Assembly (NCBI RefSeq): GCF_024298765.1 | Contig: NZ_CP101210.1 | DNA: 64,000 nucleotides | DNA from: Escherichia coli | GTDB taxonomy: Bacteria; Pseudomonadota; Gammaproteobacteria; Enterobacterales; Enterobacteriaceae | Strand: one strand, 5' to 3' | Shown here: positions 35,426 through 51,613 of the stretch, one piece after another | How the letters are laid out: each line of letters begins with the position of its first letter | Numbering within the stretch: position 1 is the first letter of the stretch | Notes under the pieces: model-generated | What the model saw: only the letters and a program-made list of their open reading frames with translations | The model's database searches: none | Told to the model about the DNA's origin: nothing | Made by a program: the position numbers and the translations under genes

Positions 35426-36106
35426 TCACAGGTTAAAGGTGTTGATAAGTTTATGGATGAAAGAGAAATGTGGCAGGGCGGAGATAAAACGCTCTTCAGC
35501 GACCAGACTGTGGATGTGGCCTCTCCGTTCAAACCGTTCTGATGTCAGGCTGACTGATTTGATATCTGCCAGAGGAAAGACCTGCAGTTTTCCCTTCTGT
35601 AACGCGATCAGATACCAGCTACCGCTGTAATAAATGAGCCGGCAGGGCTCCAGTGACGGATACCATCGCTCAGTCATCAGAGAGATGTGGATACACTGTC
35701 TTATTGCCAGGATGAGTTGCGAGAAACACTCGGGGAACGTTGCAGTGATATCCGGCGCCGGTAGCCAGATAAGGCAGGGAGAGGGCTCCTGGTTGTCGGT
35801 AAGACAGGTTATCAGTCGTCCGTTCCGGAGCGGAAGTATCCGTGCGATCCCGGTATTCTGTATAAAAGAAAGCATTTCAGGGATCGCACCTGGGCTGCTC
35901 TGTCGTCTGAGGCTGTACCTGCCATTTCTGTACTCTAAATCCAGGTGAACCAGACGCTGATGAAAATCGCGCTGTAAAGTACGTTCTGTAACGCCAAATT
36001 CATCTGACAGTGTTTTTAGTGACAGAGATTCTCCGGCCATCAGTCGGCTGATAATGAGTGATAAGCGAACCGCCAGGCGATCATGCCGGGAACGATTATC
36101 AGACAT
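35426..36106 (-). CDS. HTH + WYL-domain transcriptional regulator (YfjR-like)
   Basis: MSDNRSRHDRLAVRLSLIISRLMAGESLSLKTLSDEFGVTERTLQRDF... N-terminal HTH, C-terminal ...GSWYLIAL... WYL-like segment. Confidence 0.7.
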   Translation of the reverse strand: MSDNRSRHDRLAVRLSLIISRLMAGESLSLKTLSDEFGVTERTLQRDFHQRLVHLDLEYRNGRYSLRRQSSPGAIPEMLSFIQNTGIARILPLRNGRLITCLTDNQEPSPCLIWLPAPDITATFPECFSQLILAIRQCIHISLMTERWYPSLEPCRLIYYSGSWYLIALQKGKLQVFPLADIKSVSLTSERFERRGHIHSLVAEERFISALPHFSFIHKLINTFNL

Positions 36107-36308
36107 AGATGTGCACTCCGTAAGAAAACATCTTTTATTTCATGATGTTATTATGCATCATGATGTTGAAAGGATGTGTCGCATCCGAATAATCAGAAAT
36201 AAAATGCAGCAGAAAAAATATTCCTTTAATTATCTGATTTTTAAGCAGGGTTTCATAAAAAGAAGAATGCTTGTTAATCCAGCGACACATCCTGTCGGCG
36301 TGAGTGTG

Positions 36309-37193
36309 TCAGAACAGACGATCCCACAGTGTGACCAGCAAGTGGATAATGCGGTCCCGGGCCTTACGCAGAAGCTGTAACATCCAGGCCGGAAAGCTGA
36401 ATTGGGCAACGGCAGCGTCAAAGCTTTTCCCGATGGCGTCACCAAAAGTTTGTTGTGCGTGTTTCCGGGCCTGTTCAGAGCGGTTTTCCCCCCGGATATG
36501 TGAATAAACTGCGCTGGTTGCCTGTGGTGGCAGTGCGTGGATCATCAGCGACACCAGTGCCGGAAGATTCCAGCCGACAGGTGCGGCAACGGAGAGTACC
36601 GGAAATGATGACGGGAACAGGGGTGCCACCCGGGCTGTTACTGTCGCCAGTGAGAGTTCCTGCTGACGGGACGGGCATTTTTCTGTGTCGTTCCATTCTT
36701 CAGCAGGAAACACGCGATCGGCATGGCTGAGAACAAACAGAAAACGCGAGGGATCTGCACCTTCATTCAGTAAAAACTGATGCATGGCAATATCAGCAGC
36801 ATACGCACGTTCATCAGCCCGCAGGATCCAGATAATCAGATCCAGTTCCGGCAGTAACTGACGGTAAAGCTCCCGGTATTCCTGATCATGCTGCGGTGTC
36901 TCACCAATGCCGGGCATATCGACCAGCGTCATTCTGCGTTCACCGAGCTGCAGGGTAAGACGATGAGCCTGGCGGGTGCAGCCGTTCAGGGGATGCGTGG
37001 CGCAGATACGGGACTGAAAAATGGCATTACACAGACTGCTTTTGCCGGTGCCGGATTTACCCATAATGCCAATTACGGGCTCGTAATGAATAACACCGTG
37101 GAGATGTTCAAGGATTTTCTGGCGAATTTCTTCAGGAAGAAACGTCAGATATGATTTTACTTGTGCAGAGAGGGAAGAATGGCTGAATGACAT
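36309..37193 (-). CDS. GTP-binding protein (YfjP/YkfA/YeeP family)
   Basis: G1 motif GIMGKSGTGKSS, G3-like DMPGIGE; 294 aa. Confidence 0.8.
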   Translation of the reverse strand: MSFSHSSLSAQVKSYLTFLPEEIRQKILEHLHGVIHYEPVIGIMGKSGTGKSSLCNAIFQSRICATHPLNGCTRQAHRLTLQLGERRMTLVDMPGIGETPQHDQEYRELYRQLLPELDLIIWILRADERAYAADIAMHQFLLNEGADPSRFLFVLSHADRVFPAEEWNDTEKCPSRQQELSLATVTARVAPLFPSSFPVLSVAAPVGWNLPALVSLMIHALPPQATSAVYSHIRGENRSEQARKHAQQTFGDAIGKSFDAAVAQFSFPAWMLQLLRKARDRIIHLLVTLWDRLF

Positions 37194-37377
37194 ACCGGTA
37201 TCCTGTTGATTTCGCTGAACCGGATCACACTAATCCGGTTTATCATTCAGGTAATATGGACGTGAAAAATGATGGAATGTCTGAATTACGGACATGATTG
37301 TTAAAGTGTAATGGAGTATGAAGTGAGTTTTTCCGAACGGGAACTAATGACATACTGCGGTTTCAGGAGATGAGAGG

Positions 37378-38508
37378 ATGACCGGACGTAAAAACAAATG
37401 TGTCAGAAAAAATTGTAACAATCAGGTTTTCTCAGTAAAAATGGCAGTGGAGAAAAGACTGTGCAGAAAACATTATGAGAGGTTTTGTGAGCTCAAAAAA
37501 AGAAGAGAGCAAAATCCTGTTCACAGATTAAATGAAGCATTGCCAAGAAAGATAAAAGGACCAAAAAGTAAGAAAAAATTAGTAAAAGAAAGAGAAATCA
37601 TTAACAGCAGAAAAAAACATAAACAGGAGCAGGGACCATCGCTGACTGAACTTAATAAAAAAGTTCGTGAGATACTGAAAACTCCTGCATGGAGAACGCT
37701 GGAAACGAGAATTCGAAGAAACGGAATCACATTTAACTCAAAAGCAGAGTTAGATGCGCTTTCTGAACTTTATGCAATTTATTCATGGGTTTCATATTGC
37801 AAACGGGGCGATAATTATTCTGTGTGGTTTTTGAATTGTCCGGATGTAAATATAAACCTTCATGTGTGCGAATGCCGGTCTTCTGAAAGCGATTGTTATC
37901 TGCCATCTCGTTTTATTATTCTTCCAGCTCCATTAAGGCAAAAAGTAAAAAGAAAATACTCGGCTAATTCGTCTGGGGTACCAGGACATAATGATTCAAA
38001 AAGTCTTTATAAGACAGTTTTGTCTGTTTGTGGTGGGAAAAGAGAAACCGAAATGTTCTTTTATTCATTGCCAGTAAAGACTAATCATCATCCTTACTGG
38101 ATTAAAAGTGGTGTGGTTAAAAGATTCCCTCCTGTTTTTGGTTTGTTGTTTTATGAACAGGAAAGATTAACAGGAGGTGTTTTTCGTTATGTGTTGATAA
38201 GATTTTATAATACTTTTAAAGAGAATTTGTTTTTTGTTGAGATTGTATCGTGCTGTTTTCTTGTTGAGCTTTTTCATGATATTGATTCATTTTTTATAAA
38301 TCAACGATTAAGTAAGCTGGAAAGTTTTATAGATAAGTGGAGGGAGGGTAAAGAAATCTGGATAAAAGTATATTTACAACTGATACATACTATATTGGGA
38401 ATAACTGAAACAGAAAAACTCGTCAATCTATATAATTCATTTTTTACTGATAAAGTGGTTCTCTGGGATGAATCAGTAAAAAAAGTTAAGTGGATTTATG
38501 AGAAATAG
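37378..38508 (+). CDS. Hypothetical Lys-rich protein with Cys-rich N-terminus (orphan)
   Basis: 376-aa ORF, strongly AT-rich by eye; N-terminus CVRKNCNNQ...CRKHYERFC; no recognisable homolog. Confidence 0.45.
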   Translation: MTGRKNKCVRKNCNNQVFSVKMAVEKRLCRKHYERFCELKKRREQNPVHRLNEALPRKIKGPKSKKKLVKEREIINSRKKHKQEQGPSLTELNKKVREILKTPAWRTLETRIRRNGITFNSKAELDALSELYAIYSWVSYCKRGDNYSVWFLNCPDVNINLHVCECRSSESDCYLPSRFIILPAPLRQKVKRKYSANSSGVPGHNDSKSLYKTVLSVCGGKRETEMFFYSLPVKTNHHPYWIKSGVVKRFPPVFGLLFYEQERLTGGVFRYVLIRFYNTFKENLFFVEIVSCCFLVELFHDIDSFFINQRLSKLESFIDKWREGKEIWIKVYLQLIHTILGITETEKLVNLYNSFFTDKVVLWDESVKKVKWIYEK

Positions 38509-40013
38509 TACCATTTAACTGAAAGCCACCATAACGTCTTTTTGACTACATTTATGATAATGCGTCTCATTTTGTTTTCGTTTTTTTGTTCAGGGAAATT
38601 TTCCGAACATCAGTGATAATGAGGGTTTTGTTGTTTTTGTTTCTGCAATGTTTGAGGACTGTTCCTGGAGACGATTCGTTGCTTGTGAGCAAGAGGTGGT
38701 CCGCTTTACTGGACAAGTTTTGCATTTGTTGAGTGGTGAAATGGAAGTAAAAAGAGCCCCTTTCTGGCAATGGTTGAAAAAGTCAGTAGCGTGTGACAGT
38801 AAAAGCTAACATAAAGTGATTATCGTATGATTATGACAATGACTTATAACTTTTATGAAAAGAACAACAGAAACTACGAAGCCATAGCAGATTCCTGAGA
38901 CCATGTTTTCTGAGGTAGAGAAAATAATTCCAGAGTAAATCTGTTCTGTTTTTAGGACAGAAAACTCCATGCTGGCTGTAAAAGTGAAAAATTAACACCC
39001 AGTATGTATGGAAGTCTGAAGATGTTGAGAATGTCGGTATGATACTATATACACATATTTTACTAAGTATTTTTACTAAGCATTTCAGTAAGTGTTATAC
39101 ACGTATTTTCATAAACACTTCTACAATTGTTTTCGTTAAGCATTGCTATACACATCCAGTTTAGTAAATCTTTACGTTAACTAAATCAGTTTAATGCTGC
39201 TGTAAAACCTTTCTGCTTCAGCAATCAATCTGCTATTCGATTTTACTGATGTTACGTTTAACCTTTCCTGAGATTTCGAGTTTCGACGTTAGCATGAGAA
39301 AAGTATCTTTACGCTAAATCAACCCGAACTTTCCTGAAGTAATCTGACGTTCTTTTCGATGTGCTTACAACGATTCTGTTAAATGACTTTCTGGATGTTT
39401 TGATAACAATCAGATTTAGGCATTAACGATTCCTGACGTTTTTCTTTTCCGTGTAAGGTCATTGTTTTCGTCATGAGGTTTCTTCTTGCATTGCGAAAGT
39501 GTGATGAACGGTTTTGGTGTTTTGATTCAGATGAAGTTTACGTTATCGATGGTTAATCGTTTTTATGGTGCGTAGTGAAACGTAACGCTTTCAGGAAGGG
39601 AAAATCGATTCTGATGGGGATGATCGTGTAACGGCGTTATCTGTAAACAGGTTTTAAACATGTCATTCGCATCCGTGATTGAGTTGTGTGATTAAGCTGT
39701 AGGTTTTGGGGTTGTTGTTGATTTGCATTACCAGGAAGCGTTCTGGTTGCGTTTCTGGTGTTTTGTTTGAATGTTCTGTGGATCCTTTTCCCTTCTGACT
39801 TTTCTCGTTGTCTATGTCGTTTTTAAATCCATTCGCTGTTCTTGAGTGTTTTTACCCTGTGTGTAGAATTATCTTTTCGTTCCGGGATGGTTTGTTCCGT
39901 TTCAATCACTCTTAATCAGAAAGTTGTAGCATTGCTCAATGCCGGATGCCGTAAAGTTTTACCGCGGTGATTAATGATGTGAAGTCAATCCAAATCAACG
40001 GAGATCTCTCATC

Positions 40014-40745
40014 ATGAATCAACCAATACACAATGCTTACTGGTTATCCCGTTTTGACAGCCTTCTCGACAGTGCCCTGGCGCAGCACCGTGCCGTCTCG
40101 TTAATCCGGGTGGATTTACGTTTCCCTGAGTATATGCCTGTCACCATCATGGATCCCGATCCGGATTCAGCGGTGATTTCTCGTTTTTTTGCATCCCTGA
40201 AAGCCAAAATTCAGGCTTACCAGCGGAAAAAAAGATGTGCCAATCAGCGTGTGCATGCAACCAGCCTGGGTTATTTCTGGTGCCGGGAGTTCGGCAAGAT
40301 GTATGGCAGGAAACATTATCACGTGATATTACTGCTCAACAAAGATACCTGGTGCTCGCTCGGGGATTTCAGCGAACCGTCTTCGCTGGCGACGATGATC
40401 CAGGAGGCATGGTGCAGCGCCCTGCATCTTGAGCCCTGGCAGGGTAATGGACTGGTTCATTTTTCCAGGCGGACGCCTTTCCGTAAACCGACATCATCTG
40501 ATGCTCGCCCTTCTTCCGATGATACGCCTTTGTCGGGTGGATGTTCTGAAACCAGGAAGGTTTCAGACAAAAAGTCTGGTGAAGCCGCTGTTCTCTGGAT
40601 CAAGCGTGGTGATGTGGAAGCGATGCAGAAAGCCCGGAACAGAGCCAGTTATCTCGTGAAAAATGAAACGAAGTTGCATGATGGTTCAGGTCAACGTAAT
40701 TATGGTTGCAGTCGTGGGCCGGGGCGTCTACTGGATGGCAGGTGA
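40014..40745 (+). CDS. YfjJ/YagK-like (inovirus Gp2-family) protein
   Basis: 243 aa MNQPIHNAYWLSRFDSLLDSALAQHRAVSLIRVDLRFPEY...; resembles prophage-island YagK/YfjJ proteins. Confidence 0.6.
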   Translation: MNQPIHNAYWLSRFDSLLDSALAQHRAVSLIRVDLRFPEYMPVTIMDPDPDSAVISRFFASLKAKIQAYQRKKRCANQRVHATSLGYFWCREFGKMYGRKHYHVILLLNKDTWCSLGDFSEPSSLATMIQEAWCSALHLEPWQGNGLVHFSRRTPFRKPTSSDARPSSDDTPLSGGCSETRKVSDKKSGEAAVLWIKRGDVEAMQKARNRASYLVKNETKLHDGSGQRNYGCSRGPGRLLDGR

Positions 40746-41111
40746 ACCCTGTAAAACAGCATCTGGTGCCTGAGTGTATACCACGGTAAGGGCGTTGGAT
40801 GATGTCTTTAAATAATACAGTGCATTTTCATTCGTTTCCGCACTTTATGTTTTCACTAATCATAATAGGAAAAGTGACCACTAGCCTTGATAAATTGTAT
40901 TCACGGCCATTTCAGGAGTGGATTGTTGTGAATAACACGATGAGATCAGGGGGCTGAAGATTTTTTCTTTATCCGTTCAGACTTCAGTAACTGGAAAAAG
41001 CTTTCTGTAACCGCATTATAGTGGCAGTTACCGCGATGGTCGTGTTATTTCAGGAACGACTGACGCTCATGGCTTGTACACTAAAGAGTGAACTTAGGTA
41101 ATGACTCCAAC

Positions 41112-41615
41112 TTATTGATAGTGTTTTATGTTCAGATAATGCCCGATGACTTTGTCATGCAGCTCCACCGATTTTGAGAACGACAGCGACTTCCGTCCCA
41201 GCCGTGCCAGGTGCTGCCTCAGATTCAGGTTATGCCGCTCAATTCGCTGCGTATATCGCTTGCTGATTACGTGCAGCTTTCCCTTCAGGCGGGATTCATA
41301 CAGCGGCCAGCCATCCGTCATCCATATCACCACGTCAAAGGGTGACAGCAGGCTCATAAGACGCCCCAGCGTCGCCATAGTGCGTTCACCGAATACGTGC
41401 GCAACAACCGTCTTCCGGAGACTGTCATACGCGTAAAACAGCCAGCGCTGGCGCGATTTAGCCCCGACATAGCCCCACTGTTCGTCCATTTCCTCGCAGA
41501 CGATGACGTCACTGCCCGGCTGTATGCGCGAGGTTACCGACTGCGGCCTGAGTTTTTTAAGTGACGTAAAATCGTGTTGAGGCCAACGCCCATAATGCGG
41601 GCAGTTGCCCGGCAT
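41112..41615 (-). CDS. insB: IS1 InsB (expressed as InsAB by frameshift)
   Basis: ...[64 protein letters not shown]... Confidence 0.9.
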
Positions 41616-41809
41616 CCGACGCCATTCATGGCCATATCAATGATTTTCTGGTGCGTACCGGGTTGAGAGGCGGTGTAAGTGAACTGTAGTTGCCATGTTT
41701 TACGGCAATGAGAGCAGAGATAGCGCTGATGTCCGGCAGTGCTTTTGCCGTTACGCACCACGCCTTCAGGAGCGGAGCAGGAAGGACATCTGATGGAAAT
41801 GGAAGCCAC
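41534..41809 (-). CDS. insA: IS1 InsA
   Basis: [43 protein letters not shown]... Confidence 0.9.
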
Positions 41810-42072
41810 GCAAGCACCTTAAAATCACCATCATACACTAAATCAGTAAGTTGGCACCATTACCTGACCAAGCTTCCTCTATTGCGGCACCTGATTGCAT
41901 CAATATCGAAAGTGATAAGATCCTCTCACTAGCAGGGCATGACAAGTGTAACTGCTGATTTGTTAGCCTGTTTTAAGTTTTTTAAGATCAATTATTTCTC
42001 ATTTTTTGACTTTATTGCTAGCCGTGAAAATGCAAAGCCTATAGGATACAAAAATTACAATTTGTAGGTTTT

Positions 42073-42579
42073 GTGAGTCATATGAAGGCAACCAATATAG
42101 ACCCTCAACTGCTTGAAAAAGCCACGAGTATCTTTGCTGAGTTGGGCTTACCTATTGAGCAGGCTATTAACGTCTTTTTAGCTAAATCCGTTCAAGCCAA
42201 AGGTTTTCCGTTTTCTGTTGCTCTTGAAAATGAAGTAGAGACACGGGAAGTTGCACAAACGCAACACAATATCAGCAATGCAGAGATAACCGAAGCTATC
42301 CAAGACTTGGTTGAACATGCTCTACCACTGAGTGAAATAGAAAACCTCACGCAGCTAACCTATTGTCGCAACATTTTTGGGTTGTCATTCCCCGTGCTCA
42401 AACTGGCTAAATCATCACGGCCAGAAGACATTCGCAGTGCAGCCAAAGATGCCAAAGAGCGAAACCGCTACTCCACCACTAAAGTGGCCCAGCGAGATGA
42501 AAAAACCTATGTTATTTGCACCCAATGGACCGACAGACATCGTTCTGCATTTTGCCGTTGGCAAGCCATCTTTAGCTAG
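42073..42579 (+). CDS. RelB/DinJ-like antitoxin-domain protein with C-terminal extension
   Basis: N-terminus MKATNIDPQLLEKATSIFAELGLPIEQAINVFLAKSVQAKGFPF resembles DinJ/RelB RHH antitoxins; ~90-aa C-terminal extension unrecognised; no adjacent toxin ORF. Confidence 0.5.
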   Translation: MSHMKATNIDPQLLEKATSIFAELGLPIEQAINVFLAKSVQAKGFPFSVALENEVETREVAQTQHNISNAEITEAIQDLVEHALPLSEIENLTQLTYCRNIFGLSFPVLKLAKSSRPEDIRSAAKDAKERNRYSTTKVAQRDEKTYVICTQWTDRHRSAFCRWQAIFS

Positions 42580-42645: not shown

Positions 42646-44625
42646 ATGAACTTACAAGACAAAGAACAAAGCGCCAAACTCTCCAGTGCTATTTGGCGTA
42701 TGGCAGATGATTTATGGGGTGATTTCAAACACACCGATTTTGCGCGGATTATCCTGCCATTTTTGCTACTGCGTCGTATTGAATGCGTGTTAGAACCCAC
42801 CCGTGAGGAAGTTCGTAAGTTCTATCTGGCCGAAAAACAATCCGGCATAGACCTTGGTTTAGTGTTGCCAGAAATTGCGGGATTCGCCTTTTACAACACC
42901 AGTGAATATAGCCTAGAAACCTTAGGCGCGTCAGACACCGGCGACAACCTAGAACACTACATCAGCCAGTTCAGCAAAAACGTTCGTACCATCTTTGATG
43001 AGTTTAAATTTGGTCAAACCATAGAAGATCTGGAAAAAGCCAAGTTGCTGTATCGCATGGTAAACCATTTTGCCAACCTCGACTTGCATCCTGATGTAGT
43101 GTCTGACCGCGTATTATCAGATGCTTATGAAGAGCTGATTCTAAAGTTCGCCAGTTCGGTTAATGAAAAGGCCGGGGAATTTATGACCCCGCGTGATGCC
43201 GTGCGTCTTGCCACCAAACTGGTGCTGGCGGCGGATGAAGATATCTTTAGTGAAAAGGGTGTGATCCGCACCATCTATGACCCAACCTGTGGCACGGGCG
43301 GTTTCCTTTCCGATGCCATTAGCCAAATTGAAGAAATGGGCAGCAGCGCTAAAGTCGTGCCTTTTGGTCAAGAGCTCGACCCCGCGACCCATGCCATGGC
43401 GCTGACCAATATGATGATCCGCGGTTTTGATGCCAATAACATCAAGCAAGGCAACACCTTATCAGACGATCAGTTACGTGCCGACAAGTTTCACTACGGC
43501 CTTGCCAACCCGCCATTTGGCATTAAGTGGGAAAAAGCCAAGAAAGAAGTAGAACGTGAGCACAAACAGCTCAAATACGCCGGACGCTTTGGGCCAGGCC
43601 TGCCGAGTATTTCTGATGGTTCAATGCTGTTTTTACTGCACTTGGTATCAAAAATGGAAACGCCGGAAAATGGTGGTGGCCGAGTGGGTATAGTCCTTTC
43701 TGGCTCGCCACTGTTTAATGGCGATGCAGGCTCAGGCCCATCAGAAATCCGCCGTTGGCTGCTAGAACAAGACTTAGTCGAAGCGATTGTTGCCCTGCCA
43801 ACCGATATGTTCTTCAACACCGGCATTGGCACCTACATCTGGATTTTGACTAACCATAAAGAGCCAAGACGCAAGAATCAGGTGCAACTGATTAACTTGG
43901 CAGATATTTGGACTCCCATGCGTAAATCGCAAGGCGATAAGCGCAAGTACCTGAGTGATGAACAGATTGACGATATTGTCCGTGCGTACGATGGCTTTGA
44001 AGCCAGTGACAACTGTAAGATCTTCCAGACTACTGATTTTGCCTACCGTAAAGTCACCATTCAGCGTCCACTGCGTGCCAAACTAGATATTACCGCTGCG
44101 GGCATTGCTGCATTTGTGCAGCAAGATACGTTTAAAAAACTCAAACCAGAGCAACAAGCGGCATGGGTACAATACCTCACCGATAACCTTGGCCTTCAGC
44201 CTTATGAATGGGCACGTTTGGCGGTTAAGAAGAATAACAATAAGGGTGACTTTGGTAAGTGCTCAAAAGCACTGGCTACGGCCTTAACTGCGCACTTTGT
44301 AAAAATTGATCCGCAATTTGAGCCTGCACTGGATGAAAAAGGCCAAGTGATCGCCGACCCTAAACTCAAAGACACCGAAAGCATTCCTTTTGACCGCGAC
44401 GTTGAAGATTACTTCGCACAAGAGGTGCTGCCACATGTACCGGATGCCTTTATTGATCACTCAGTGCGTGATGAAAAAGACGGCGAAGTGGGCATTGTCG
44501 GTTATGAAATTAACTTTAACCGCTATTTCTACCAATACGTGCCACCACGCGAGTTGAGTGTGATTGATCGTGAGCTAAAAGCATGTGAAGCGCGCATTCA
44601 GGCTCTGCTGAATGAGGTGGCGTAA
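42646..44625 (+). CDS. hsdM: Type I restriction-modification system, DNA methyltransferase subunit
   Basis: AdoMet motif DPTCGTGGFL and catalytic NPPF (GLANPPFGIKWEK); 659 aa. Confidence 0.9.
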   Translation: MNLQDKEQSAKLSSAIWRMADDLWGDFKHTDFARIILPFLLLRRIECVLEPTREEVRKFYLAEKQSGIDLGLVLPEIAGFAFYNTSEYSLETLGASDTGDNLEHYISQFSKNVRTIFDEFKFGQTIEDLEKAKLLYRMVNHFANLDLHPDVVSDRVLSDAYEELILKFASSVNEKAGEFMTPRDAVRLATKLVLAADEDIFSEKGVIRTIYDPTCGTGGFLSDAISQIEEMGSSAKVVPFGQELDPATHAMALTNMMIRGFDANNIKQGNTLSDDQLRADKFHYGLANPPFGIKWEKAKKEVEREHKQLKYAGRFGPGLPSISDGSMLFLLHLVSKMETPENGGGRVGIVLSGSPLFNGDAGSGPSEIRRWLLEQDLVEAIVALPTDMFFNTGIGTYIWILTNHKEPRRKNQVQLINLADIWTPMRKSQGDKRKYLSDEQIDDIVRAYDGFEASDNCKIFQTTDFAYRKVTIQRPLRAKLDITAAGIAAFVQQDTFKKLKPEQQAAWVQYLTDNLGLQPYEWARLAVKKNNNKGDFGKCSKALATALTAHFVKIDPQFEPALDEKGQVIADPKLKDTESIPFDRDVEDYFAQEVLPHVPDAFIDHSVRDEKDGEVGIVGYEINFNRYFYQYVPPRELSVIDRELKACEARIQALLNEVA

Positions 44626-45911
44626 TGAATGCTGGCAACATAGTAGATGCTTTCGTATCTGACTCGAAATGGAACTCAGTACCAGCTAAACGTTTATTTA
44701 CGAGTAGCAAAGAAATCAATCAAGGAATGAAAGAATCTAATCGTCTTGCACTAACAATGAAAGGTGTCATAAACCGCTCGTTAGACGATTTACAAGGACT
44801 TCAATCTTCTGATTACTCTGTTTATCAGATTTTTGAAAAAGATGACTTAGTTTTTAAGCTCATAGATCTTGAAAATATAAAGACTAGCCGAGTGGGGATT
44901 GTGCATGAACGAGGAATAATGAGCCCTGCATACATCCGTGTTTCAGCGAGTTCAAATAGCATCTACCCAAGGTTCTATTACTGGTACTTTTTTGCTCTAT
45001 ACCTAACCAATATTTATAACAAACTGGGTGGAGGAGTTCGTCAGAACCTAACAGCTGGTGATCTTTTAGAAATACCTGTTCCACTGATTGATATTTCATT
45101 ACAGAAGCAGGTTAGCACATTCCTTGATCGCGAAACCCAGCGCATCGACAGTCTGATCGAGGAAAAGCAGACCTTTATTAAGCTGCTCAAAGAAAAACGC
45201 CAAGCACTGATCAGCCATGTGGTCACAAAGGGGCTCTATCCCAATGTGGAGATGCAGGACTCTGGCATCGAGTGGATTGGGCAAGTGCCGAAGCATTGGG
45301 AAGTCAAAAAGATAAAGCATATTTGCTCCAACTTTATGTATGGAACCTCTCAAGACTGTAACCAGTCTGATGTTGGCTATCCTGTTCTCAGGATACCAAA
45401 CATCAAGAGTACCAATGTTGATTTTGAAGATCTCAAATATGCAAATATCAGTGATGTTGATGCTTTAACTTATCTTTTATCAAGAGGCGACATTTTAGTC
45501 ATCAGAACTAACGGTAACCCTAATCTGGTCGGCCAAAGCGCGCTTTTTGATTCAAATGGGCAGTATTTATTTGCGTCGTACCTAATAAAGTTAACACCAA
45601 AGCAAGGAGTGGATACTAGCTTCTTAGTGGAAGCGATGAACTCACTATCTGTTCGTCAAGCATTAACATTTCAGTCAAGAACATCGGTAGGTAACTACAA
45701 CCTGAGCATTCCTTCACTAGCTAATACAAGTATTGCTATCCCACCAATTGATGAGCAAAAGACAATAACGAATTACTTGAGTGCAGCAACGATAAACATT
45801 GATTTACTGATTCAAGAGACTGATAAATCGATTGATCTTCTAAAAGAACACCGCACATCGCTGATCAACGCGGCTGTCACAGGAAAAATAGACGTCAGGG
45901 AGGCGGTGTAA
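44625..45911 (+). CDS. hsdS: Type I restriction-modification system, specificity subunit
   Basis: 428 aa with two target-recognition domains separated by conserved repeats (LIEEKQTFIKLLKEKRQALISHVVTKGL / LLIQETDKSIDLLKEHRTSLINAAVTGKIDV); start overlaps hsdM stop (TAATG). Confidence 0.85.
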   Translation: MNAGNIVDAFVSDSKWNSVPAKRLFTSSKEINQGMKESNRLALTMKGVINRSLDDLQGLQSSDYSVYQIFEKDDLVFKLIDLENIKTSRVGIVHERGIMSPAYIRVSASSNSIYPRFYYWYFFALYLTNIYNKLGGGVRQNLTAGDLLEIPVPLIDISLQKQVSTFLDRETQRIDSLIEEKQTFIKLLKEKRQALISHVVTKGLYPNVEMQDSGIEWIGQVPKHWEVKKIKHICSNFMYGTSQDCNQSDVGYPVLRIPNIKSTNVDFEDLKYANISDVDALTYLLSRGDILVIRTNGNPNLVGQSALFDSNGQYLFASYLIKLTPKQGVDTSFLVEAMNSLSVRQALTFQSRTSVGNYNLSIPSLANTSIAIPPIDEQKTITNYLSAATINIDLLIQETDKSIDLLKEHRTSLINAAVTGKIDVREAV

Positions 45912-48900
45912 TGGCTGCACATCATGAAGTGCATTTTGAACAATATATTACCGAGCAGTTGGTGAACAATGGCTGGAAAGAAGGCCATTCCTGCCACTAT
46001 GACCAGCAACGCGCCCTTTACCCGCAAGATGTCATGGATTGGGTAAAGGCCACCCAGCCAGATGCCTGGCACAAACTGAATAAACTGCATGGTGTGAATG
46101 CCGAGCAGGTGCTGTTGGAGCGTTTGGAAAAAGCCCTCTCTTCCCACAAAGCTGGCAGTAAAACAGGTGGCACCATTAATGTGCTGCGTAAAGGCTTTAC
46201 CATTGCAGGTTGCGGCACGATTGCCATGGGCCAACGCAAACCCGAAGATGCGCGCAATGAAGAGCGTATAGCCCGTTATGAGCACAACATTTTGCGCGTG
46301 GTGCGCCAACTGAAATATTGCCCGACTCGCGAGTGGGAAATTGACTTGGTGTTCTTTATCAACGGTCTACCCGTTGCCACCGCCGAGCTAAAAACCGATT
46401 TTACCCAGTCGCTAGAATCGGCGATTGCGCAGTACAAAGAGGATCGTCTGCCCGTTGACCCAAAAACCAAGCGTAAAGAGCCGCTGTTAACCTTTAAACG
46501 CGGTGCAGTGGTACATTTTGCCATGTCTGATACAGAAATCGCCATGGCGACCAAACTGGCGGGAGAAAATACCTATTTTCTGCCCTTCAATAAAGGCCAT
46601 GATGGTTCTACCTCTGATTTGCCCGTACACATCAACTTGCCGGGTGAAGATGGAGAGTATCCGGTCAGCTATTTTTGGCAAGAAATTGCCCAAAAAGATA
46701 ATTGGCTACGCATTTTCTACAGCTTTGTGTATGTCGAAACCAAAGAGGTTGCCGATAGCAATGGCAAGGTTGAGCGTAAGGAAACACAGATTTTTCCGCG
46801 TTATCATCAGTTAGCCGCAGTCAACAAGATGATTGATGATGCCCGCCAGAACGGCGCAGGCATGCAGTATCTTTGTGAGCACAGCGCCGGTTCGGGAAAA
46901 ACCTCTACCATAGCCTGGACGGCCCATGATTTGATTCGTTTACGCAGCACCGATGGTAAAGCGGTCTTTAAATCAGTGATCATTGTGACCGACCGCACCG
47001 TGCTGGATTCGCAGTTGCAAGATGCGGTGCAACAGCTGGATCATCAATATGGGGTGATTAAGGCGATTGATCGCGAAAAGAGCAGCGAGTCGAAATCAAA
47101 ACAGCTGACTGAAGCGCTATTGACTGGCACGCCGATCATTGTAGTGACGATTCAAACCTTCCCATATGCGTTAGAAGCGATTCTGACCAATCAATCTTTG
47201 GCACAAAGTAACTTTGCGGTGATCATCGATGAAGCACACACCTCGCAAACAGGCTCTACAGCCAAAGGGTTACGCGCAGCGCTTACTCTAAACCTTAGCC
47301 CTCAAGAGTTGGAGCAAATGAGCATTGAGGACATTCTTACTAAGGTGCAAGAAGCGCGCGCCATGCCCAAGAACGTTTCGCACTTTGCTTTTACGGCAAC
47401 ACCCAAGCACAGCACCAAGATGTTGTTTGGCCGCCCGAAAGACCCTAACCAACCAGTGTCAGATGACAATCTTCCTGAATCGTTCCACCTCTACACCCAA
47501 CGTCAGGCCATTGATGAGGGTTTTATTCTTGATGTGCTGGAGAATTACACCCACTACGATACAGCCTACAAAATTGGTGAGAACAATCTGGATGAGAAGC
47601 GCGTAGACAGCAAACAAGCTCGCCGCGCGTTGGCGCGCTGGATGTCACTGCACCCAACCACGGTCAGCCAAAAAGTCGAATTTATTATTAAGCACTTCAA
47701 GGCCAATATCGCTCACCTACTGGAAGGTGAAGCCAAAGCCATGGTGGTCACATCGGGCAGGCCACAGGCGGTGAAATACAAGCTTGCTTTTGATAAATAC
47801 ATTAAAAAGCATGGTATTGAAGGTATCCAAGCCTTGGTTGCCTTCTCGGGCAAAGTCCCCGGCAAAGATTTGGGTGATGAAGACAGCCAAGACCCGCTAG
47901 AAATTGATTTCGATAAAGAGTACACCGAGTACAACTTAAACCCAGACACGCACGGGGCTGACCTGCGCCATGAGTTTGAGAAAACCGAATATCGCGTCAT
48001 GTTAGTCGCCAACAAGTTCCAAACGGGCTTTAATCAACCAAAACTGGTTGCCATGTATTTGGATAAGAAAATATCCGATGTAGAAGCGGTGCAAACGCTG
48101 TCTCGCCTAAACCGCACCTATCCAGGCAAAGACACAACCTTCGTGATTGATTTTGTTAACGATCCACAAACCATTCTCAATGCGTTCAAAAAGTACGACA
48201 AAGGCGCGCAGCTTAATGAAGTGCAAGATGTGAACGTCATCTATGACATCAAAGATATTTTGGATGAACAGAACATATACAACCATCAAGATTTAGAGTT
48301 GTTTAAGCAAGCGCGTGGTAAATCGATTCTCGGCCAATCACCTGACAAAAAGCCACACGCGCACAAGAAACTGCTAGCTGCCACACAACGCCCTACCGAT
48401 GTGTTCAACGTTAAGCTCAAAGAGCTGGTTGATGCTGCAAACCATTGGGATCAGCAATACAACAAAGCGCACCTTGCGGGTGATGAAAAAGCGGCGAACT
48501 ACGCAGAATCTCAGCGCAGTGATTTCACCAAGCAGCGCGAAGCACTAATGCGTTTTAAGTCAGATTTAGCTCGATTTGTGAAGCACTATAGCTATATGGC
48601 GCAATTGATTGAGTTTGGTGATCCTGAACTGGAAAACTTTGCCGCGTTTGCTCATTTGCTATCACGTCGATTGAAAGGGGTAACACCAGAAAACATCGAT
48701 CTCAGTGCACTGGTACTAGAAAAATTCAAAATCAAATACGACAAAGAGCCGCTTCCAGAAGCGTTTAATCAGGTACTTGAACCTATCCGCCCCAACTATA
48801 ACGACCCTGCGGATCGTGAACAGGCATTTCTTGCCGATATCATTCGCCGCCTAAACGAACTGTTTGGCGATGTCGGCGACGAACCCGGTCGCCGAAACTT

Positions 48901-49147
48901 TGCCAACGGTACTATTACGCGTGTCACCCAAAATCCAATTGTGGTTGAGCAGATAGAAAAGCACGACAAGTCGATTGCCCTCAAAGGCGACTTGCCGCAA
49001 GCGGTGAAGCAAGCCGTTGTGCAGGCTCTGCTGAAAGAAGGTGATATAGCCCGAACGCTACTCAAAGACCCACAAGTTATGGCAAGTTATGTTGAGTTGA
49101 TTTTTGACATGATGAAGCAAGGTGCAGAACAGGCGGCGGTGAAATAA
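45911..49147 (+). CDS. hsdR: Type I restriction-modification system, restriction/helicase subunit
   Basis: 1078 aa; Walker A SAGSGKTST, DEAH box (IIDEAHTSQ); start overlaps hsdS stop (TAATG). Confidence 0.9.
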   Translation: MAAHHEVHFEQYITEQLVNNGWKEGHSCHYDQQRALYPQDVMDWVKATQPDAWHKLNKLHGVNAEQVLLERLEKALSSHKAGSKTGGTINVLRKGFTIAGCGTIAMGQRKPEDARNEERIARYEHNILRVVRQLKYCPTREWEIDLVFFINGLPVATAELKTDFTQSLESAIAQYKEDRLPVDPKTKRKEPLLTFKRGAVVHFAMSDTEIAMATKLAGENTYFLPFNKGHDGSTSDLPVHINLPGEDGEYPVSYFWQEIAQKDNWLRIFYSFVYVETKEVADSNGKVERKETQIFPRYHQLAAVNKMIDDARQNGAGMQYLCEHSAGSGKTSTIAWTAHDLIRLRSTDGKAVFKSVIIVTDRTVLDSQLQDAVQQLDHQYGVIKAIDREKSSESKSKQLTEALLTGTPIIVVTIQTFPYALEAILTNQSLAQSNFAVIIDEAHTSQTGSTAKGLRAALTLNLSPQELEQMSIEDILTKVQEARAMPKNVSHFAFTATPKHSTKMLFGRPKDPNQPVSDDNLPESFHLYTQRQAIDEGFILDVLENYTHYDTAYKIGENNLDEKRVDSKQARRALARWMSLHPTTVSQKVEFIIKHFKANIAHLLEGEAKAMVVTSGRPQAVKYKLAFDKYIKKHGIEGIQALVAFSGKVPGKDLGDEDSQDPLEIDFDKEYTEYNLNPDTHGADLRHEFEKTEYRVMLVANKFQTGFNQPKLVAMYLDKKISDVEAVQTLSRLNRTYPGKDTTFVIDFVNDPQTILNAFKKYDKGAQLNEVQDVNVIYDIKDILDEQNIYNHQDLELFKQARGKSILGQSPDKKPHAHKKLLAATQRPTDVFNVKLKELVDAANHWDQQYNKAHLAGDEKAANYAESQRSDFTKQREALMRFKSDLARFVKHYSYMAQLIEFGDPELENFAAFAHLLSRRLKGVTPENIDLSALVLEKFKIKYDKEPLPEAFNQVLEPIRPNYNDPADREQAFLADIIRRLNELFGDVGDEPGRRNFANGTITRVTQNPIVVEQIEKHDKSIALKGDLPQAVKQAVVQALLKEGDIARTLLKDPQVMASYVELIFDMMKQGAEQAAVK

Positions 49148-49701
49148 TGAATACTGCGTTTCGGGTTTTACTTACGTTCAATGCAACATCACTACTAGTG
49201 ATTATCTTTGCGGTACAAAAAGGGTACTCACTCGGATATTTCTTTGGTGGTTTCGCTTGCTTCGATTGGATAGCAGCACTTCCGAACGCAGTATCATATT
49301 TACTCTATTTTCTTATCCCTGTTTTATCGACTGGATTGAGTATTTGGCTGAGTAAGTATTTGGGTAAAGACGATTTTAAGGCGGGTGAAGTAGCGAGTAT
49401 TGAGCATGCCAATAACAGCTTCCTACCAAGTTATTTGGGTTACTTTTTCGTGGCGTTGAGCATTGGTAACTGGGAGACATTGTGGTTTGTTTATGGCGTT
49501 TTGTTTGTTTTTACTCTCTTATCGCAAGCACTCTACTTTAACCCATTGTTTTTACTGTTTGGTTATGAGTTTTATAACATTACAACCAAAAACGGAACGG
49601 CCATTTTCCTTATTAGCCGAGAGCGCTACAAGAAGCCAGATGACATCGAAATATCATTGGCTTATCGAATCAATAATTACACATTTATCGAGCGAGGATA
49701 A
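49147..49701 (+). CDS. Small polytopic membrane protein (about 4 predicted TM helices), candidate defense component (KwaA-like architecture)
   Basis: 184 aa with hydrophobic segments LLVIIFAV, WIAALPNAVSYLLYFLIPVLSTGLSIWL, YFFVALSIGNW, LWFVYGVLFVFTLLSQALYF; ATG overlaps hsdR stop (TAATG); AT-rich. Confidence 0.55.
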   Translation: MNTAFRVLLTFNATSLLVIIFAVQKGYSLGYFFGGFACFDWIAALPNAVSYLLYFLIPVLSTGLSIWLSKYLGKDDFKAGEVASIEHANNSFLPSYLGYFFVALSIGNWETLWFVYGVLFVFTLLSQALYFNPLFLLFGYEFYNITTKNGTAIFLISRERYKKPDDIEISLAYRINNYTFIERG

Positions 49702-50543
49702 TGATGGACCATGTACTGGCACATATAAAAACTAGAGCAAAAAAACGCATTTTCAAATTGGTTTCTGATCAATCTCTTTTTGATACCGTCACAATCGACT
49801 TAAATGCCTGTATTCCATACAATCCAGACCATAACCTTGACGAAGACTCATGGTTTAAAATTGAAGACTTTAGTCAAAAAGAGTTTTGTATTGAACTGCT
49901 AAAAAAAGACTATGATTCAAAAGACTACGATGACTTAACCAAAGATAACTTCGCCAAGATCGCCTACTTATTTGCAATTCAAGGTAATGATTTTTACTTT
50001 CAAAAAATCACTCCAAGCCTATTCGTAAAACGCAAAACGCTTGTTTTTGGTGAAGCCGCAGAAATTGAGAAGAGCCAAACACGTTTAGTAATAAACGCCT
50101 TACCTGATGCAGTGTACTTCAAAGTGGCCGATACCTTGATATTCAAAAATCTGGCAACGATCTCGAGCATTTTTAAAGGTATCGATGAGTTGTACAAGGA
50201 AGCAACAAAAGAAGAAGTTGAGCAGTTTTTAGATGCACAGTTTATAGAGTTGGGTAATGACTACAACGTAGATAGCGTCTCAAAACCTAATAGAAAACGT
50301 ATTGGCCTTGCTATGGCAACACTTGATGCGATGTCTGCTGACGATAAAGCTAACATGCTTGATTATATCGACGGTTACTGCGGTGAACAGAAGCTGAAAT
50401 TCGATAAAGAAAATCAGAAGTTTGAAATATCTAATGACGATGAGTTGAAGTTACTGCTTTATGGCATTGAACAACGCTTCTATACGACCCCGTTTGGCAA
50501 AGAAAAAAGGCTCGCTAACTCTGTAACCGCTATGGATAAATAA
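49701..50543 (+). CDS. Soluble acidic protein, partner of the membrane protein (KwaB-like position)
   Basis: 280-aa ORF, no TM segment, no recognised catalytic motif; ATG overlaps preceding stop (TAATG), GAGG SD. Confidence 0.55.
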   Translation: MMDHVLAHIKTRAKKRIFKLVSDQSLFDTVTIDLNACIPYNPDHNLDEDSWFKIEDFSQKEFCIELLKKDYDSKDYDDLTKDNFAKIAYLFAIQGNDFYFQKITPSLFVKRKTLVFGEAAEIEKSQTRLVINALPDAVYFKVADTLIFKNLATISSIFKGIDELYKEATKEEVEQFLDAQFIELGNDYNVDSVSKPNRKRIGLAMATLDAMSADDKANMLDYIDGYCGEQKLKFDKENQKFEISNDDELKLLLYGIEQRFYTTPFGKEKRLANSVTAMDK

Positions 50544-50578
50544 TAGCCCATTATCAGTAACATATGAAGGTTGATTCA

Positions 50579-51613
50579 ATGGCCGATAACATCCCACAAG
50601 CTCCTCAAGGTGAGTTTGTTCTTTTCACCAGTGCTGATGGTCAAACCCGCGTTGAGTGTCGTTTTGAGTCTGACACCTTGTGGCTTTCTCAGGCTGCAAT
50701 GGCAGAGCTTTATCAAGTTAGCTCTCAAGCAATCACCCAACACGTAAAAGCTGTCTATTCTGAAGAAGAGCTTGAGCAAATTTCAACTTGTAAGGATTAC
50801 TTACAAGTTCAACTGGAAGGTGGCAGAGAAGTAAAGCGAAGCATTCGTCACTACAGTCTTCCGGTTATTCTTGCAGTAGGATACCGAGTTCGCTCAACAC
50901 GTGGCACCCAGTTCCGCCAATGGGCAACCAGAATGTTGCAAGAATACCTAATCAAAGGATTCGTCATGGATGACGAGCGCCTGAAAAATCCGCCCATTGG
51001 CCATTCTGCTGTGCCAGATTACTTTGATGAAATGCTGGAACGCATTCGTGATATCCGAGCTAGTGAGCGTCGCGTTTATCTGCGAGTCAAAGAAATCTTT
51101 ACCATGGCTGCTGATTACGAGCCATCTAACCAAGAGACCAACCGCTTCTTCCAAACCATTCAGAATAAGCTGCATTATGCTTGTACGCATATGACGGCTG
51201 CTGAGCTTATCGCCAGCCGTGTGGATGCCAGTAAGCCGGATATGGGCTTAACCAGCTATAAAGGCGATGAAGTGCGCAAGACAGACGTTACTGTTGCCAA
51301 GAACTATTTGCGTGAAGACGAAATCAAAGAGCTTAATCGCATCGTCAATATGTGGCTCGACTTTGCTGAAGACCAAGCACTGCGTCGCAAGCAGGTATTT
51401 TTACAGGACTGGGCCGATAAGCTTGACCAGTTCTTGAGTTTTAACGATAGAGATGTATTAAACGGTGCAGGAAAAATCTCCAAGAAAGACGCTGATGACA
51501 AAGCGAAATTGGAGTTTGACCGCTTTGCCCAGCAGCGCCGTCGTTTAAAAGAAGCCGAAGGCGCACGGGCCAATATCGCAGCCCTCAAGGCCATACTAAA
51601 AAAAGATAAATAG
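50579..51613 (+). CDS. rhuM: RhuM-family virulence-associated protein
   Basis: ...RHYSLPVILAVGYRVRSTRGTQFRQWATRMLQEYLIKGFVMDDERL... matches the conserved RhuM core as I recall it. Confidence 0.7.
   Translation: MADNIPQAPQGEFVLFTSADGQTRVECRFESDTLWLSQAAMAELYQVSSQAITQHVKAVYSEEELEQISTCKDYLQVQLEGGREVKRSIRHYSLPVILAVGYRVRSTRGTQFRQWATRMLQEYLIKGFVMDDERLKNPPIGHSAVPDYFDEMLERIRDIRASERRVYLRVKEIFTMAADYEPSNQETNRFFQTIQNKLHYACTHMTAAELIASRVDASKPDMGLTSYKGDEVRKTDVTVAKNYLREDEIKELNRIVNMWLDFAEDQALRRKQVFLQDWADKLDQFLSFNDRDVLNGAGKISKKDADDKAKLEFDRFAQQRRRLKEAEGARANIAALKAILKKDK

What the first reader, a model, noticed from the sequence alone, without database searches (positions are those of the whole stretch)
37378..38508. 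AT-rich orphan ORF encoding a Lys-rich protein with a Cys-rich N-terminus
A 376-aa ORF with very low apparent GC content and no recognisable family lies between the island GTPase gene and a long ORF-less tract. The N-terminus has a CxxxC...CxxH...C pattern suggestive of a zinc ribbon followed by a highly basic region, so it could bind nucleic acid. The composition suggests foreign, possibly H-NS-silenced DNA.
Basis: seen in the sequence. Interest (0 to 1): 0.5.

Follow-up and report, generated by a model that had tools for sequence, protein, structure and literature searches.

The report
Zinc-finger protein descended from a nuclease
This is a real but unnamed gene of a mobile E. coli genomic island: its zinc-finger protein descends from DNA-cutting HNH enzymes but has lost the cutting residues, and very different versions of it occupy the same slot in otherwise near-identical islands.

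Summary
There is a 376-aa ORF at 37378-38508 (+) with 33.5% GC against 49.5% for the window. It is Lys-rich and has a conserved C8/C13/C29/H32 motif.

It is a genuine gene. dN/dS is 0.33 against an 80%-identical allele, with no indels. Full-length homologues at 30% identity occur in Klebsiella in the same position.

It is not an orphan. It belongs to a small unnamed family found only in Enterobacterales (37 representatives among 1.84 billion proteins; no Pfam, NCBIfam or PADLOC model). A sister clade, homologous over the full length (hhalign E 7e-30), keeps an intact HNH motif and matches phage HNH endonuclease families at E about 1e-6. The window protein has E165, R178 and R187 at the three catalytic positions, so it is an inactivated derivative.

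The gene lies in a 1.65-kb allelic cassette (37271-38920) between a YfjP-type GTPase gene and a conserved non-coding tract followed by a YagK/YfjJ gene. Other E. coli islands with 82-97% identical flanks carry family members only about 20% identical in that slot. An empty slot was found in 1 of 5426 genomes.

The most likely function is a non-cutting DNA-binding core factor of CP4-type islands. That function is inferred, and H-NS silencing was not tested.

The parts
37271..37377 (+). 5' part of the allelic cassette. It holds the gene's own upstream region, with Shine-Dalgarno-like AGGAG/GAGAGG just before the ATG. No promoter was established.
   Evidence: Homology with the UTI89 and F374 islands stops at 37269/37270. 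Sequence read. No plus-strand promoter-like site was found in the scan.
37378..38508 (+). CDS of 376 aa: an inactivated member of an unnamed zinc-finger/HNH-derived family (RefSeq 'hypothetical protein' WP_097546996.1).
37399..37488 (+). N-terminal Cys3His zinc-binding motif (C8, C13, C29, H32), plus C37, which is conserved in clade A only.
   Evidence: Ligand columns read C-C-C-H in 23/24 sequences. pLDDT is 95-97 for residues 11-40. There are non-significant pattern-level matches to the SBP and TtuA zinc fingers.
37513..37641 (+). Lys/Arg-rich linker, predicted disordered. In clade C a second Cys cluster occupies this position.
   Evidence: pLDDT below 50 for residues 59-79; alignment A2; composition.
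37642..37836 (+). Helical region with the KTPAWR motif (W105 nearly invariant) and the ELYxIYSW motif.
37852..37962 (+). Remnant of the HNH beta-beta-alpha-metal finger: strand 161-165, strand 179-183, helix 184-194. E165, R178 and R187 replace the catalytic His, the structural Asn and the metal-binding Asn. P183 is invariant.
   Evidence: Secondary structure of the model; column table; hhalign of clade A against clade C.
37963..38505 (+). C-terminal helical domain carrying the residues most conserved across the whole family (P252, L256, R263, E288, Y352, N353). No convincing match to any known fold.
38509..38920 (+). 3' non-coding part of the allelic cassette. It travels with this allele. The small ORFs inside it are not conserved in frame, and no unusual RNA folding was found.
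36309..37193 (-). Context: divergently transcribed YfjP/YkfA-type GTPase gene, the first gene of the leftward island operon (WYL/YfjR regulator, DUF932, antirestriction, RadC/JAB, CbeA/CbtA).
38921..40013 (+). Context: conserved, unannotated non-coding tract that always follows the cassette and precedes the Gp2-like gene.
40014..40745 (+). Context: YagK/YfjJ ('inovirus Gp2 family') gene.

Best explanation
The ORF is a functional gene. It encodes a catalytically dead member of a previously unnamed protein family of Enterobacterales.

Architecture: an N-terminal Cys3His zinc finger, a basic linker, a helical region, an HNH-type beta-beta-alpha finger, and a conserved C-terminal helical domain.

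One clade of the family keeps the HNH catalytic residues and is presumably a nuclease or nickase. The clade in the window has replaced all three.

The family is a positional core component of CP4/P4-like integrative islands. It sits next to the AlpA, integrase, Gp2-like/DUF3987 and YfjP-GTPase backbone genes, and it exists as deeply diverged alleles that are exchanged as a 1.6-kb cassette between conserved flanks.

Inferred mechanism: the protein binds DNA, or possibly RNA, through the zinc finger, the basic linker and the nuclease-fold remnant without cutting it. It acts in the island's own biology (control of the divergent backbone operon, or excision/replication/transfer DNA processing) through a conserved partner contacted by the C-terminal domain.

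Shown: gene reality, family membership, HNH ancestry, loss of the catalytic residues, cassette structure and synteny. Inferred: DNA binding, absence of nuclease activity, and the cellular process.
For: - **Real gene.** dN/dS is 0.33 with no indels against the 80% allele, comparable to the neighbouring Gp2-like gene at 0.28-0.37. The gene covers at least 80% of its length in 458 of the 462 E. coli genomes that carry it. Full-length 30%-identical homologues occur in Klebsiella and Atlantibacter.
- **Family.** There are 37 representatives at E<=1e-3 among 1.84 billion proteins, forming three clades. Named sources are Escherichia, Salmonella, Klebsiella, Serratia, Providencia, Citrobacter and Atlantibacter.
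- **HNH ancestry.** Clade A against clade C by profile-profile comparison gives probability 99.8%, E 6.8e-30, over the full length. All 10 clade C members have H..P(N)..GG.N...N........N. Eight of them match the PHROG HNH endonuclease family phrog_1271 at E<0.1, and the best matches to HNH PHROGs are 8.8e-7 (phrog_8660) and 2e-6 (phrog_1271). Pfam HNH_4/HNH_5 matches are weak. AFDB structural neighbours include three entries named 'HNH endonuclease'.
- **Loss of the active site.** The window protein has E165/R178/R187. None of the 17 non-C members keeps the His. None of the 10 other clade A/B members tested, nor the window protein, hits an HNH PHROG.
- **Fold.** The AlphaFold model built from the 27-sequence alignment has pLDDT 83.8 and pTM 0.71, with beta-beta-alpha at residues 161-194.
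- **Core-gene status.** The same position is seen in E. coli, Klebsiella and an Enterobacteriaceae isolate. Clade C genes lie directly after alpA and near an integrase, DUF3987, DUF932, RadC and CbtA/CbeA genes.
- **Cassette.** The boundaries are 37270 and 38921. The UTI89 and F374 islands carry other family members in the slot. An empty slot was found in 1 of 5426 genomes. The three alleles are present in 462, 975 and 741 genomes.
Against: - No experiment or expression data were found, and no paper mentions the protein.
- No promoter was identified upstream.
- The link to HNH is transitive; the window protein itself matches no HNH model.
- Similarity of the downstream conserved tract does not track allele class: 77% for the closest allele against 82-91% for very different alleles. 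This argues against that tract being the allele-specific binding target.
- The gene is less constrained than most of its neighbours (dN/dS 0.33 against 0.03-0.18).
- Very rapid divergence fits an arms-race function at least as well as a housekeeping island function.
Confidence: 0.45

Rival explanations
1. The gene is a fast-evolving conflict protein: a defence, counter-defence or helper-interference factor. Its variable parts recognise a phage or plasmid component, and the nuclease fold has been retooled as a sensor or binding module. The allelic cassettes would then reflect diversifying or balancing selection.
For: - The target is only about 20-30% identical where the neighbours are 52-100% identical.
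- Cassette exchange occurs between conserved flanks.
- The island carries anti-restriction and RadC genes and toxin-antitoxin (TA) genes to the left, and a type I R-M system, Kiwa and PDC-S05 to the right.
- Tract similarity does not co-vary with allele, so an external target is plausible.
- The clade C gene in L010 sits beside GmrSD, AAA_15 and methylase genes and a GTPase gene.
Against: - No PADLOC model matches any clade.
- The slot is backbone, not the cargo hotspot, and is essentially never empty, whereas defence cargo is typically present or absent.
- The effector-type catalytic residues are lost in two of the three clades.
- No phage homologues were found.
Confidence: 0.22
2. The gene is a decaying free-standing HNH homing-endonuclease gene. 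In this reading a selfish cassette invaded the intergenic site, lost its activity and is drifting towards loss, with no function for the island or the host.
For: HNH ancestry combined with a lost active site. Much lower GC than the flanks. A sharply bounded insertion between conserved genes. Patchy distribution: 8.5% of E. coli genomes.
Against: - Purifying selection (dN/dS 0.33) is uniform along the gene, with no frameshifts across 14% nucleotide divergence.
- The full length is preserved down to 30% identity across genera.
- The strongest conservation lies in the non-nuclease C-terminal domain across all clades.
- The slot is occupied by some family member in nearly all islands, and an uninvaded site was found in only 1 of 5426 genomes.
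Confidence: 0.1
3. The gene is an allele-specific master regulator of the island, analogous to the Stl repressors of SaPIs. It would bind the 184-bp divergent region shared with the GTPase operon and keep the backbone operon off until a specific helper or signal relieves it.
For: - The gene is arranged divergently from the long GTPase...CbtA operon in E. coli and Klebsiella, and from the WYL regulator gene in L011-L013.
- Alleles are highly divergent in an otherwise conserved island, as with Stl.
- The zinc finger and basic region suggest DNA binding.
Against: - In clade C the gene is co-directional with, and downstream of, alpA rather than divergent from an operon.
- The first 76 bp next to the GTPase gene are conserved regardless of allele.
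- No repeated operator-like motif is conserved between the 100% and 80% alleles.
- At 376-430 aa with a nuclease fold, the protein is atypical for a repressor.
Confidence: 0.15
4. The ORF is spurious or a silenced, non-functional stretch of AT-rich foreign DNA.
For: AT-rich DNA with no annotation beyond 'hypothetical protein'. No promoter was predicted.
Against: An open frame of 376 codons at 33.5% GC is extremely improbable by chance. Also against it: purifying selection, distant full-length homologues in conserved synteny, and a confident structure prediction once homologues are supplied.
Confidence: 0.02

Closest known systems
HNH (beta-beta-alpha-metal) endonucleases, especially phage HNH endonucleases with N-terminal Cys/His zinc fingers (PHROG phrog_1271, phrog_8660; Pfam HNH_4/HNH_5)
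   Same: The sister clade of the family shares the H...N...N motif (CHxYPNSxGGxNxxxNxxIxPxxxN) and matches these PHROG families at E of about 1e-6. The matches include the N-terminal zinc-finger region. The window protein is homologous to that clade over its whole length and keeps the beta-beta-alpha secondary structure.
   Different: The catalytic His, the structural Asn and the metal-binding Asn are replaced (E165, R178, R187). The protein has a large conserved C-terminal helical domain with no known fold match. It is an island backbone gene, not a phage gene. No direct match to any HNH model was found.
Free-standing homing endonuclease genes of phages
   Same: HNH ancestry, low GC, and insertion as a discrete cassette between conserved genes of a mobile element.
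   Different: There is no presence/absence polymorphism: the slot is empty in 1 of 5426 genomes. The gene is under purifying selection although the active site is gone. Different alleles of one family occupy the same slot.
Stl-type master repressors of phage-inducible chromosomal islands (analogy only, from general knowledge)
   Same: A highly divergent allele series sits at a fixed position in otherwise conserved islands and is transcribed divergently from a backbone operon.
   Different: There is no sequence or fold relationship. No helix-turn-helix is present. The clade C genes are not divergent from an operon. No repression or helper interaction has been shown.
Cys3His zinc fingers with C-x4-C-x15/16-C-x2-H spacing (first finger of the plant SBP domain; N-terminal finger of TtuA)
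   Same: Same ligand order and nearly the same spacing. These were the top, though non-significant, PDB sequence matches of the clade C profile.
   Different: The E-values are 1-2, which is not evidence of homology. The rest of the protein is unrelated.

Membership tests
HNH / beta-beta-alpha-metal endonuclease superfamily | Beta-beta-alpha core: two strands followed by a helix | tested here: met
HNH / beta-beta-alpha-metal endonuclease superfamily | Catalytic (general-base) histidine at the end of strand 1 | tested here: not met
   The window protein has E165. The Klebsiella homologue has K. All 10 clade C members have H.
HNH / beta-beta-alpha-metal endonuclease superfamily | Structural Asn before strand 2 and metal-coordinating Asn/His on the helix | tested here: not met
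   The window protein has R178 and R187. Clade C has N and N in all 10 members.
HNH / beta-beta-alpha-metal endonuclease superfamily | Significant sequence similarity to recognised HNH families | tested here: inconclusive
   Direct comparison finds none for the window protein or for 10 other clade A/B members. The indirect route works: clade A against clade C gives E 6.8e-30, and clade C against HNH PHROGs gives E 8.8e-7 and 2e-6.
HNH / beta-beta-alpha-metal endonuclease superfamily | Metal-dependent nuclease activity | not testable with these tools
   Needs a biochemical assay. Absence of activity is predicted from the substitutions.
Free-standing homing endonuclease gene | Polymorphic presence, with intact uninvaded target sites in related genomes | tested here: not met
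   A junction query made of the two joined flanks found a near-contiguous site in 1 of 5426 E. coli genomes.
Free-standing homing endonuclease gene | Neutral decay once activity is lost | tested here: not met
   dN/dS is 0.31-0.34 in all three thirds of the gene, with no indels. Coverage is at least 80% in 458 of 462 genomes.
Cys3His zinc finger / zinc ribbon | Four conserved metal ligands with fixed spacing | tested here: met
   C8, C13, C29 and H32 are conserved in 23 of 24 sequences that have an N-terminus.
Cys3His zinc finger / zinc ribbon | Zinc actually bound | not testable with these tools
   Needs metal analysis of purified protein.
Known anti-phage defence systems (PADLOC-DB 2.0) | Match to a defence protein model | tested here: not met
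   There are no matches for the window protein or for 10 clade C members.
H-NS-silenced xenogeneic DNA | AT-rich relative to the host genome, and horizontally acquired | tested here: met
   GC is 33.5% in the ORF and 37.1% in the tract, against 49.5% for the window. The region lies on an island present in only a subset of genomes.
H-NS-silenced xenogeneic DNA | H-NS occupancy and derepression in an hns mutant | not testable with these tools
   No ChIP or RNA-seq data for a strain carrying this allele were available. K-12 lacks the gene.

The most novel reading that the evidence does not exclude
The family could be the specificity switch of CP4-type islands. Each allele would be a nuclease-derived sensor/DNA-binding protein that recognises a particular helper phage or plasmid signal, or a particular invading DNA, and thereby decides when the island's backbone operon, excision or replication is turned on. 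The active-HNH clade would be the ancestral DNA-processing version. That would make this a new class of island master controller built on a dead nuclease fold, present in roughly a third of E. coli genomes yet never named.
Probability: 0.12. Interest if true: 0.7.

Novelty: new variant of a known kind. Interest (0 to 1): 0.36.

Why it matters
CP4/P4-like islands are among the most common mobile elements of pathogenic E. coli, Klebsiella and Salmonella. They carry defence systems, toxin-antitoxin modules and virulence cargo, yet the way their backbone works is largely unknown.

This analysis turns a 'hypothetical protein' into a defined family with three properties:
- a recognisable origin in HNH nucleases;
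- a clear split between clades with an intact and with a lost active site;
- a fixed slot in the island that is almost never empty but is filled by very different alleles.

The three alleles checked here occur in 462, 975 and 741 of 5426 complete E. coli genomes, and K-12 has none, which explains why nobody has studied the family. If the protein controls or processes island DNA, it offers a handle on how these islands are regulated or mobilised. If it is a conflict protein, it is an unrecognised defence or interference component. Either way, simple experiments can decide.

Tried and rejected
- **Direct family scans** of the window protein (NCBIfam, PADLOC, PHROGs, Pfam, PDB sequences) gave nothing significant.
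- **First AlphaFold run**, with 10 close sequences, was unusable (pLDDT 43.8). It became confident only with the 27-sequence alignment.
- **Fold searches** were not informative about function:
  - Foldseek against BFVD found nothing significant.
  - Foldseek against AFDB50 found only family members.
- **Profile search of the PDB** with clade C gave only non-significant zinc-finger pattern hits.
- **A second word-indexed search** with the family alignment added no members.
- **K-12:** YfjH was tested as a possible member and rejected (hhalign probability 0.1%). CP4-57 contains neither the family nor the tract.
- **A 17-nt direct repeat** (TTTTCCGAAC core) flanking the ORF was considered as an operator or recombination site. 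It was dropped because the upstream copy is not conserved in the 80% allele and a two-copy 10-mer is expected by chance.
- **A 53-aa ORF** in the 3' cassette part was rejected because indels break its frame in the 80% allele.
- **RNA folding** of the 3' region is no better than shuffled sequence (z -0.4 and +0.9).
- **Rfam** gave nothing for 36000-42000.
- **Literature searches** by gene names, accessions and domain combinations found no paper on this protein. One paper describes analogous Pseudomonas islands with AlpA, a Gp2-like protein and RadC moved by a jumbo phage (PMC12595487), but it does not mention this family.

Full report
**1. Observation**

- The ORF is 33.5% GC, with 27% at third codon positions. 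The window is 49.5% GC and the two flanking genes 51-53%.
- The protein is 11.4% Lys and has pI 9.7. Its first 120 residues have pI 10.9.
- The Cys/His pattern is C8-x4-C13-x15-C29-x2-H32-x4-C37.
- Standard libraries give nothing significant for the protein itself: NCBIfam, PADLOC, PHROGs, Pfam and PDB sequences.
- RefSeq calls it 'hypothetical protein' (WP_097546996.1, WP_000147748.1).

The window is E. coli. An identical 2.8-kb stretch occurs in five complete genomes.

**2. It is a real gene**

- An E. coli allele that is 80% identical in protein (L008) differs at 13.6% of nucleotides. It has no indel, and dN/dS is 0.33. The ratio is 0.31-0.34 in each third of the gene.
- That ratio is like the neighbouring Gp2-like gene (0.28-0.37) and higher than the GTPase gene (0.15-0.18) and DUF932 gene (0.03).
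- Homologues of 383 aa at 30% identity over 97% of the length occur in Klebsiella and Atlantibacter. They share many invariant motifs: KCVRKNC...RLCxKHYxRFCEL, KTPAWR, ELYxIYSW, SLYK, PxFxLL and LYNSFF.
- The gene covers at least 80% of its length in 458 of the 462 E. coli genomes that have it. All copies are chromosomal.

**3. It is not an orphan**

An exhaustive profile search of 1.84 billion representative proteins found only 37 proteins at E<=1e-3. This is a rare, unnamed family. The full-length members fall into three clades (alignment A2):
- **Clade A:** the window protein, plus Klebsiella and Salmonella proteins.
- **Clade B:** proteins of about 410 aa, for example from Serratia and an Enterobacteriaceae isolate.
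- **Clade C:** proteins of 370-430 aa, for example from Providencia.

Some shorter members lack the N-terminal finger. Every named source is an Enterobacterales genus.

With the 27-sequence alignment, AlphaFold gives a confident model (pLDDT 83.8, pTM 0.71). With only close homologues the model was poor (pLDDT 43.8).

**4. HNH ancestry and loss of the active site**

- All ten clade C proteins carry LExCHxYPNSxGGxNxxxNxIIxPxxINR. H154, N168 and N177 of P0030 are invariant. From general knowledge, this is the H-N-N form of the HNH motif.
- Clade C proteins match phage 'HNH endonuclease' PHROGs. P0032 matches phrog_8660 at E 8.8e-7 and P0050 matches phrog_1271 at E 2e-6. Eight of the ten match phrog_1271 at E<0.1, and several matches also cover the N-terminal zinc-finger region.
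- Weaker hints come from Pfam HNH_4/HNH_5 (E 0.02-0.04) and a Cas9d HNH segment.
- Three AFDB structural neighbours are annotated as HNH endonuclease.
- Clade A and clade C are homologous over their full length (hhalign probability 99.8%, E 6.8e-30).
- In the window protein the three catalytic columns read E165, R178 and R187. None of the 17 non-C sequences keeps the His.
- As a control, none of ten other clade A/B proteins, nor the window protein, hits an HNH PHROG.
- The model keeps the beta-beta-alpha layout: strands 161-165 and 179-183, helix 184-194.

**5. Genomic setting**

In E. coli and Klebsiella the gene is transcribed divergently from a YfjP/YkfA-type GTPase gene. That gene heads the leftward island operon: WYL/YfjR regulator, DUF932, antirestriction, RadC/JAB and CbeA/CbtA.

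Downstream lie a non-coding tract and then a YagK/YfjJ ('inovirus Gp2 family') gene, with alpA close by.

Clade C genes lie immediately after alpA, overlapping it in L020. They are near integrase, DUF3987, DUF932, antirestriction, RadC and CbtA/CbeA genes, and once directly upstream of a GTPase gene.

The family therefore belongs to the backbone of CP4/P4-like integrative islands. It is absent from phage genomes and almost absent from plasmids. K-12 CP4-57 has neither the gene nor the tract, and YfjH is unrelated.

**6. Allelic cassette**

Compared with the UTI89 and F374 islands, homology runs up to window position 37270 (97.5% and 93.5% identity). It resumes at 38921 (82% and 91%). The 1,650 bp in between contain the ORF, 107 bp upstream of it and 412 bp downstream.
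- In UTI89 the slot holds a 407-aa clade B member. hhalign to clade A gives E 1.6e-10, and it is not detected by BLASTP.
- In F374 the slot holds a finger-less member (hhalign E 2.2e-4, probability 45%, weaker support) plus a reverse gene.
- Neighbouring proteins are 88-100% identical between the window and UTI89. Between E. coli and Klebsiella the neighbours are 52-74% identical, against 30% for this protein.
- The three alleles occur in 462, 975 and 741 of 5426 complete E. coli genomes.
- A query made of the two joined flanks found a near-empty slot in only one genome.

The slot is thus practically always filled, by very different versions of one family.

**7. Interpretation**

The best-supported reading is a functional, non-catalytic descendant of an HNH nuclease. 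It would act on nucleic acid through its zinc finger, basic linker and nuclease-fold remnant, and serve the island itself. Its C-terminal domain would contact a conserved partner. Which process it serves (transcriptional control of the divergent operon, or excision/replication/transfer DNA processing next to AlpA and the Gp2-like protein) cannot be decided here.

Two observations keep a conflict-type function alive (defence, counter-defence or helper sensing). One is the very fast divergence. The other is that similarity of the downstream tract does not follow allele class: 77% for the closest allele against 82-91% for distant ones.

A decaying homing endonuclease is unlikely, given the purifying selection, the conserved non-nuclease domain and the absence of empty sites.

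H-NS silencing is plausible from composition alone and was not testable.

**8. Comparison with the known, and novelty**

The protein works, at most, like an inactivated HNH domain protein. It fails the functional membership tests for HNH endonucleases (catalytic His and both Asn), while meeting the fold-level and descent-level tests indirectly.

No paper, Pfam, NCBIfam or PADLOC entry covers the family. I rate it a new variant of a known kind, of moderate interest. It is a tidy reclassification of a common 'hypothetical protein', with a testable hypothesis but without a demonstrated function.

Noticed in passing
window 38921-40013: A roughly 1.1-kb ORF-less tract upstream of the YagK/YfjJ (Gp2-like) gene is conserved at 75-96% nucleotide identity in 1879 of 5426 E. 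coli genomes, with up to 8 copies per genome. It carries essentially no annotation: 'none', or a short 'hypothetical protein', in the rows listed. There is no Rfam match and I saw no conserved small ORF. It could be an origin, a long leader or an unknown RNA.
   Followed up: partly
window 37194-37270 and 38921 onward: The junction between the GTPase-side flank and the conserved tract is almost never found without an intervening cassette. It was near-contiguous in only 1 of 5426 genomes (strain WB61).
   Followed up: yes
L017:3393-4616 (UTI89) and L018:2726-3676 (F374): Alternative alleles of the same family occupy the same slot in other E. coli islands. A 407-aa clade B protein (WP_001107221.1; a member of the cluster is named Q8G9U5_ECOLX) is in 975 genomes, and a 316-aa version without the zinc finger is in 741 genomes. 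All are annotated as hypothetical.
   Followed up: partly
window 42646-51613: The island cargo to the right is a stack of defence genes: type I R-M hsdM/hsdS/hsdR (42646-49147), Kiwa KwaA (49147-49701) and KwaB (49701-50543), and a PDC-S05 candidate defence protein (50564-51613, E 8e-167).
   Followed up: partly
window 42073-42579: A 168-aa ORF just upstream of hsdM has an N-terminal RelB/DinJ antitoxin-like domain (E 1.7e-10, just below the curated cut-off) and an unassigned C-terminal half.
   Followed up: no
window 41112-41809: An IS1 element (InsA/InsB-like ORFs on the minus strand) is inserted right after the Gp2-like gene. It probably separates that gene from the alpA-containing part seen in related islands.
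   Followed up: no
window 36309-37193 (minus strand): The YfjP-type GTPase shows weak similarity to the dynamin-like LeoBC/LeoA proteins of a candidate defence system (E 8e-8 over about 100 residues). In one clade C locus (L010) a GTPase gene lies directly downstream of the HNH-intact family member.
   Followed up: no
clade A/B loci L003-L006, L008, L011-L013, L017, L018 against clade C loci L010, L014, L019-L021: In the few loci seen, islands with the inactivated alleles carry a YagK/YfjJ or G2P-like rolling-circle-type gene downstream. Islands with the HNH-intact clade showed none within the flanks held, and one has DUF3987 instead. The sample is too small to call this a pattern, but it suggests a possible division of labour.
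   Followed up: no
L001:21304-21654 and L002:12522-12962 (related islands): Closely related islands encode their own H-NS family protein a few kb beyond the Gp2-like gene. This is relevant to any silencing of this AT-rich region.
   Followed up: no
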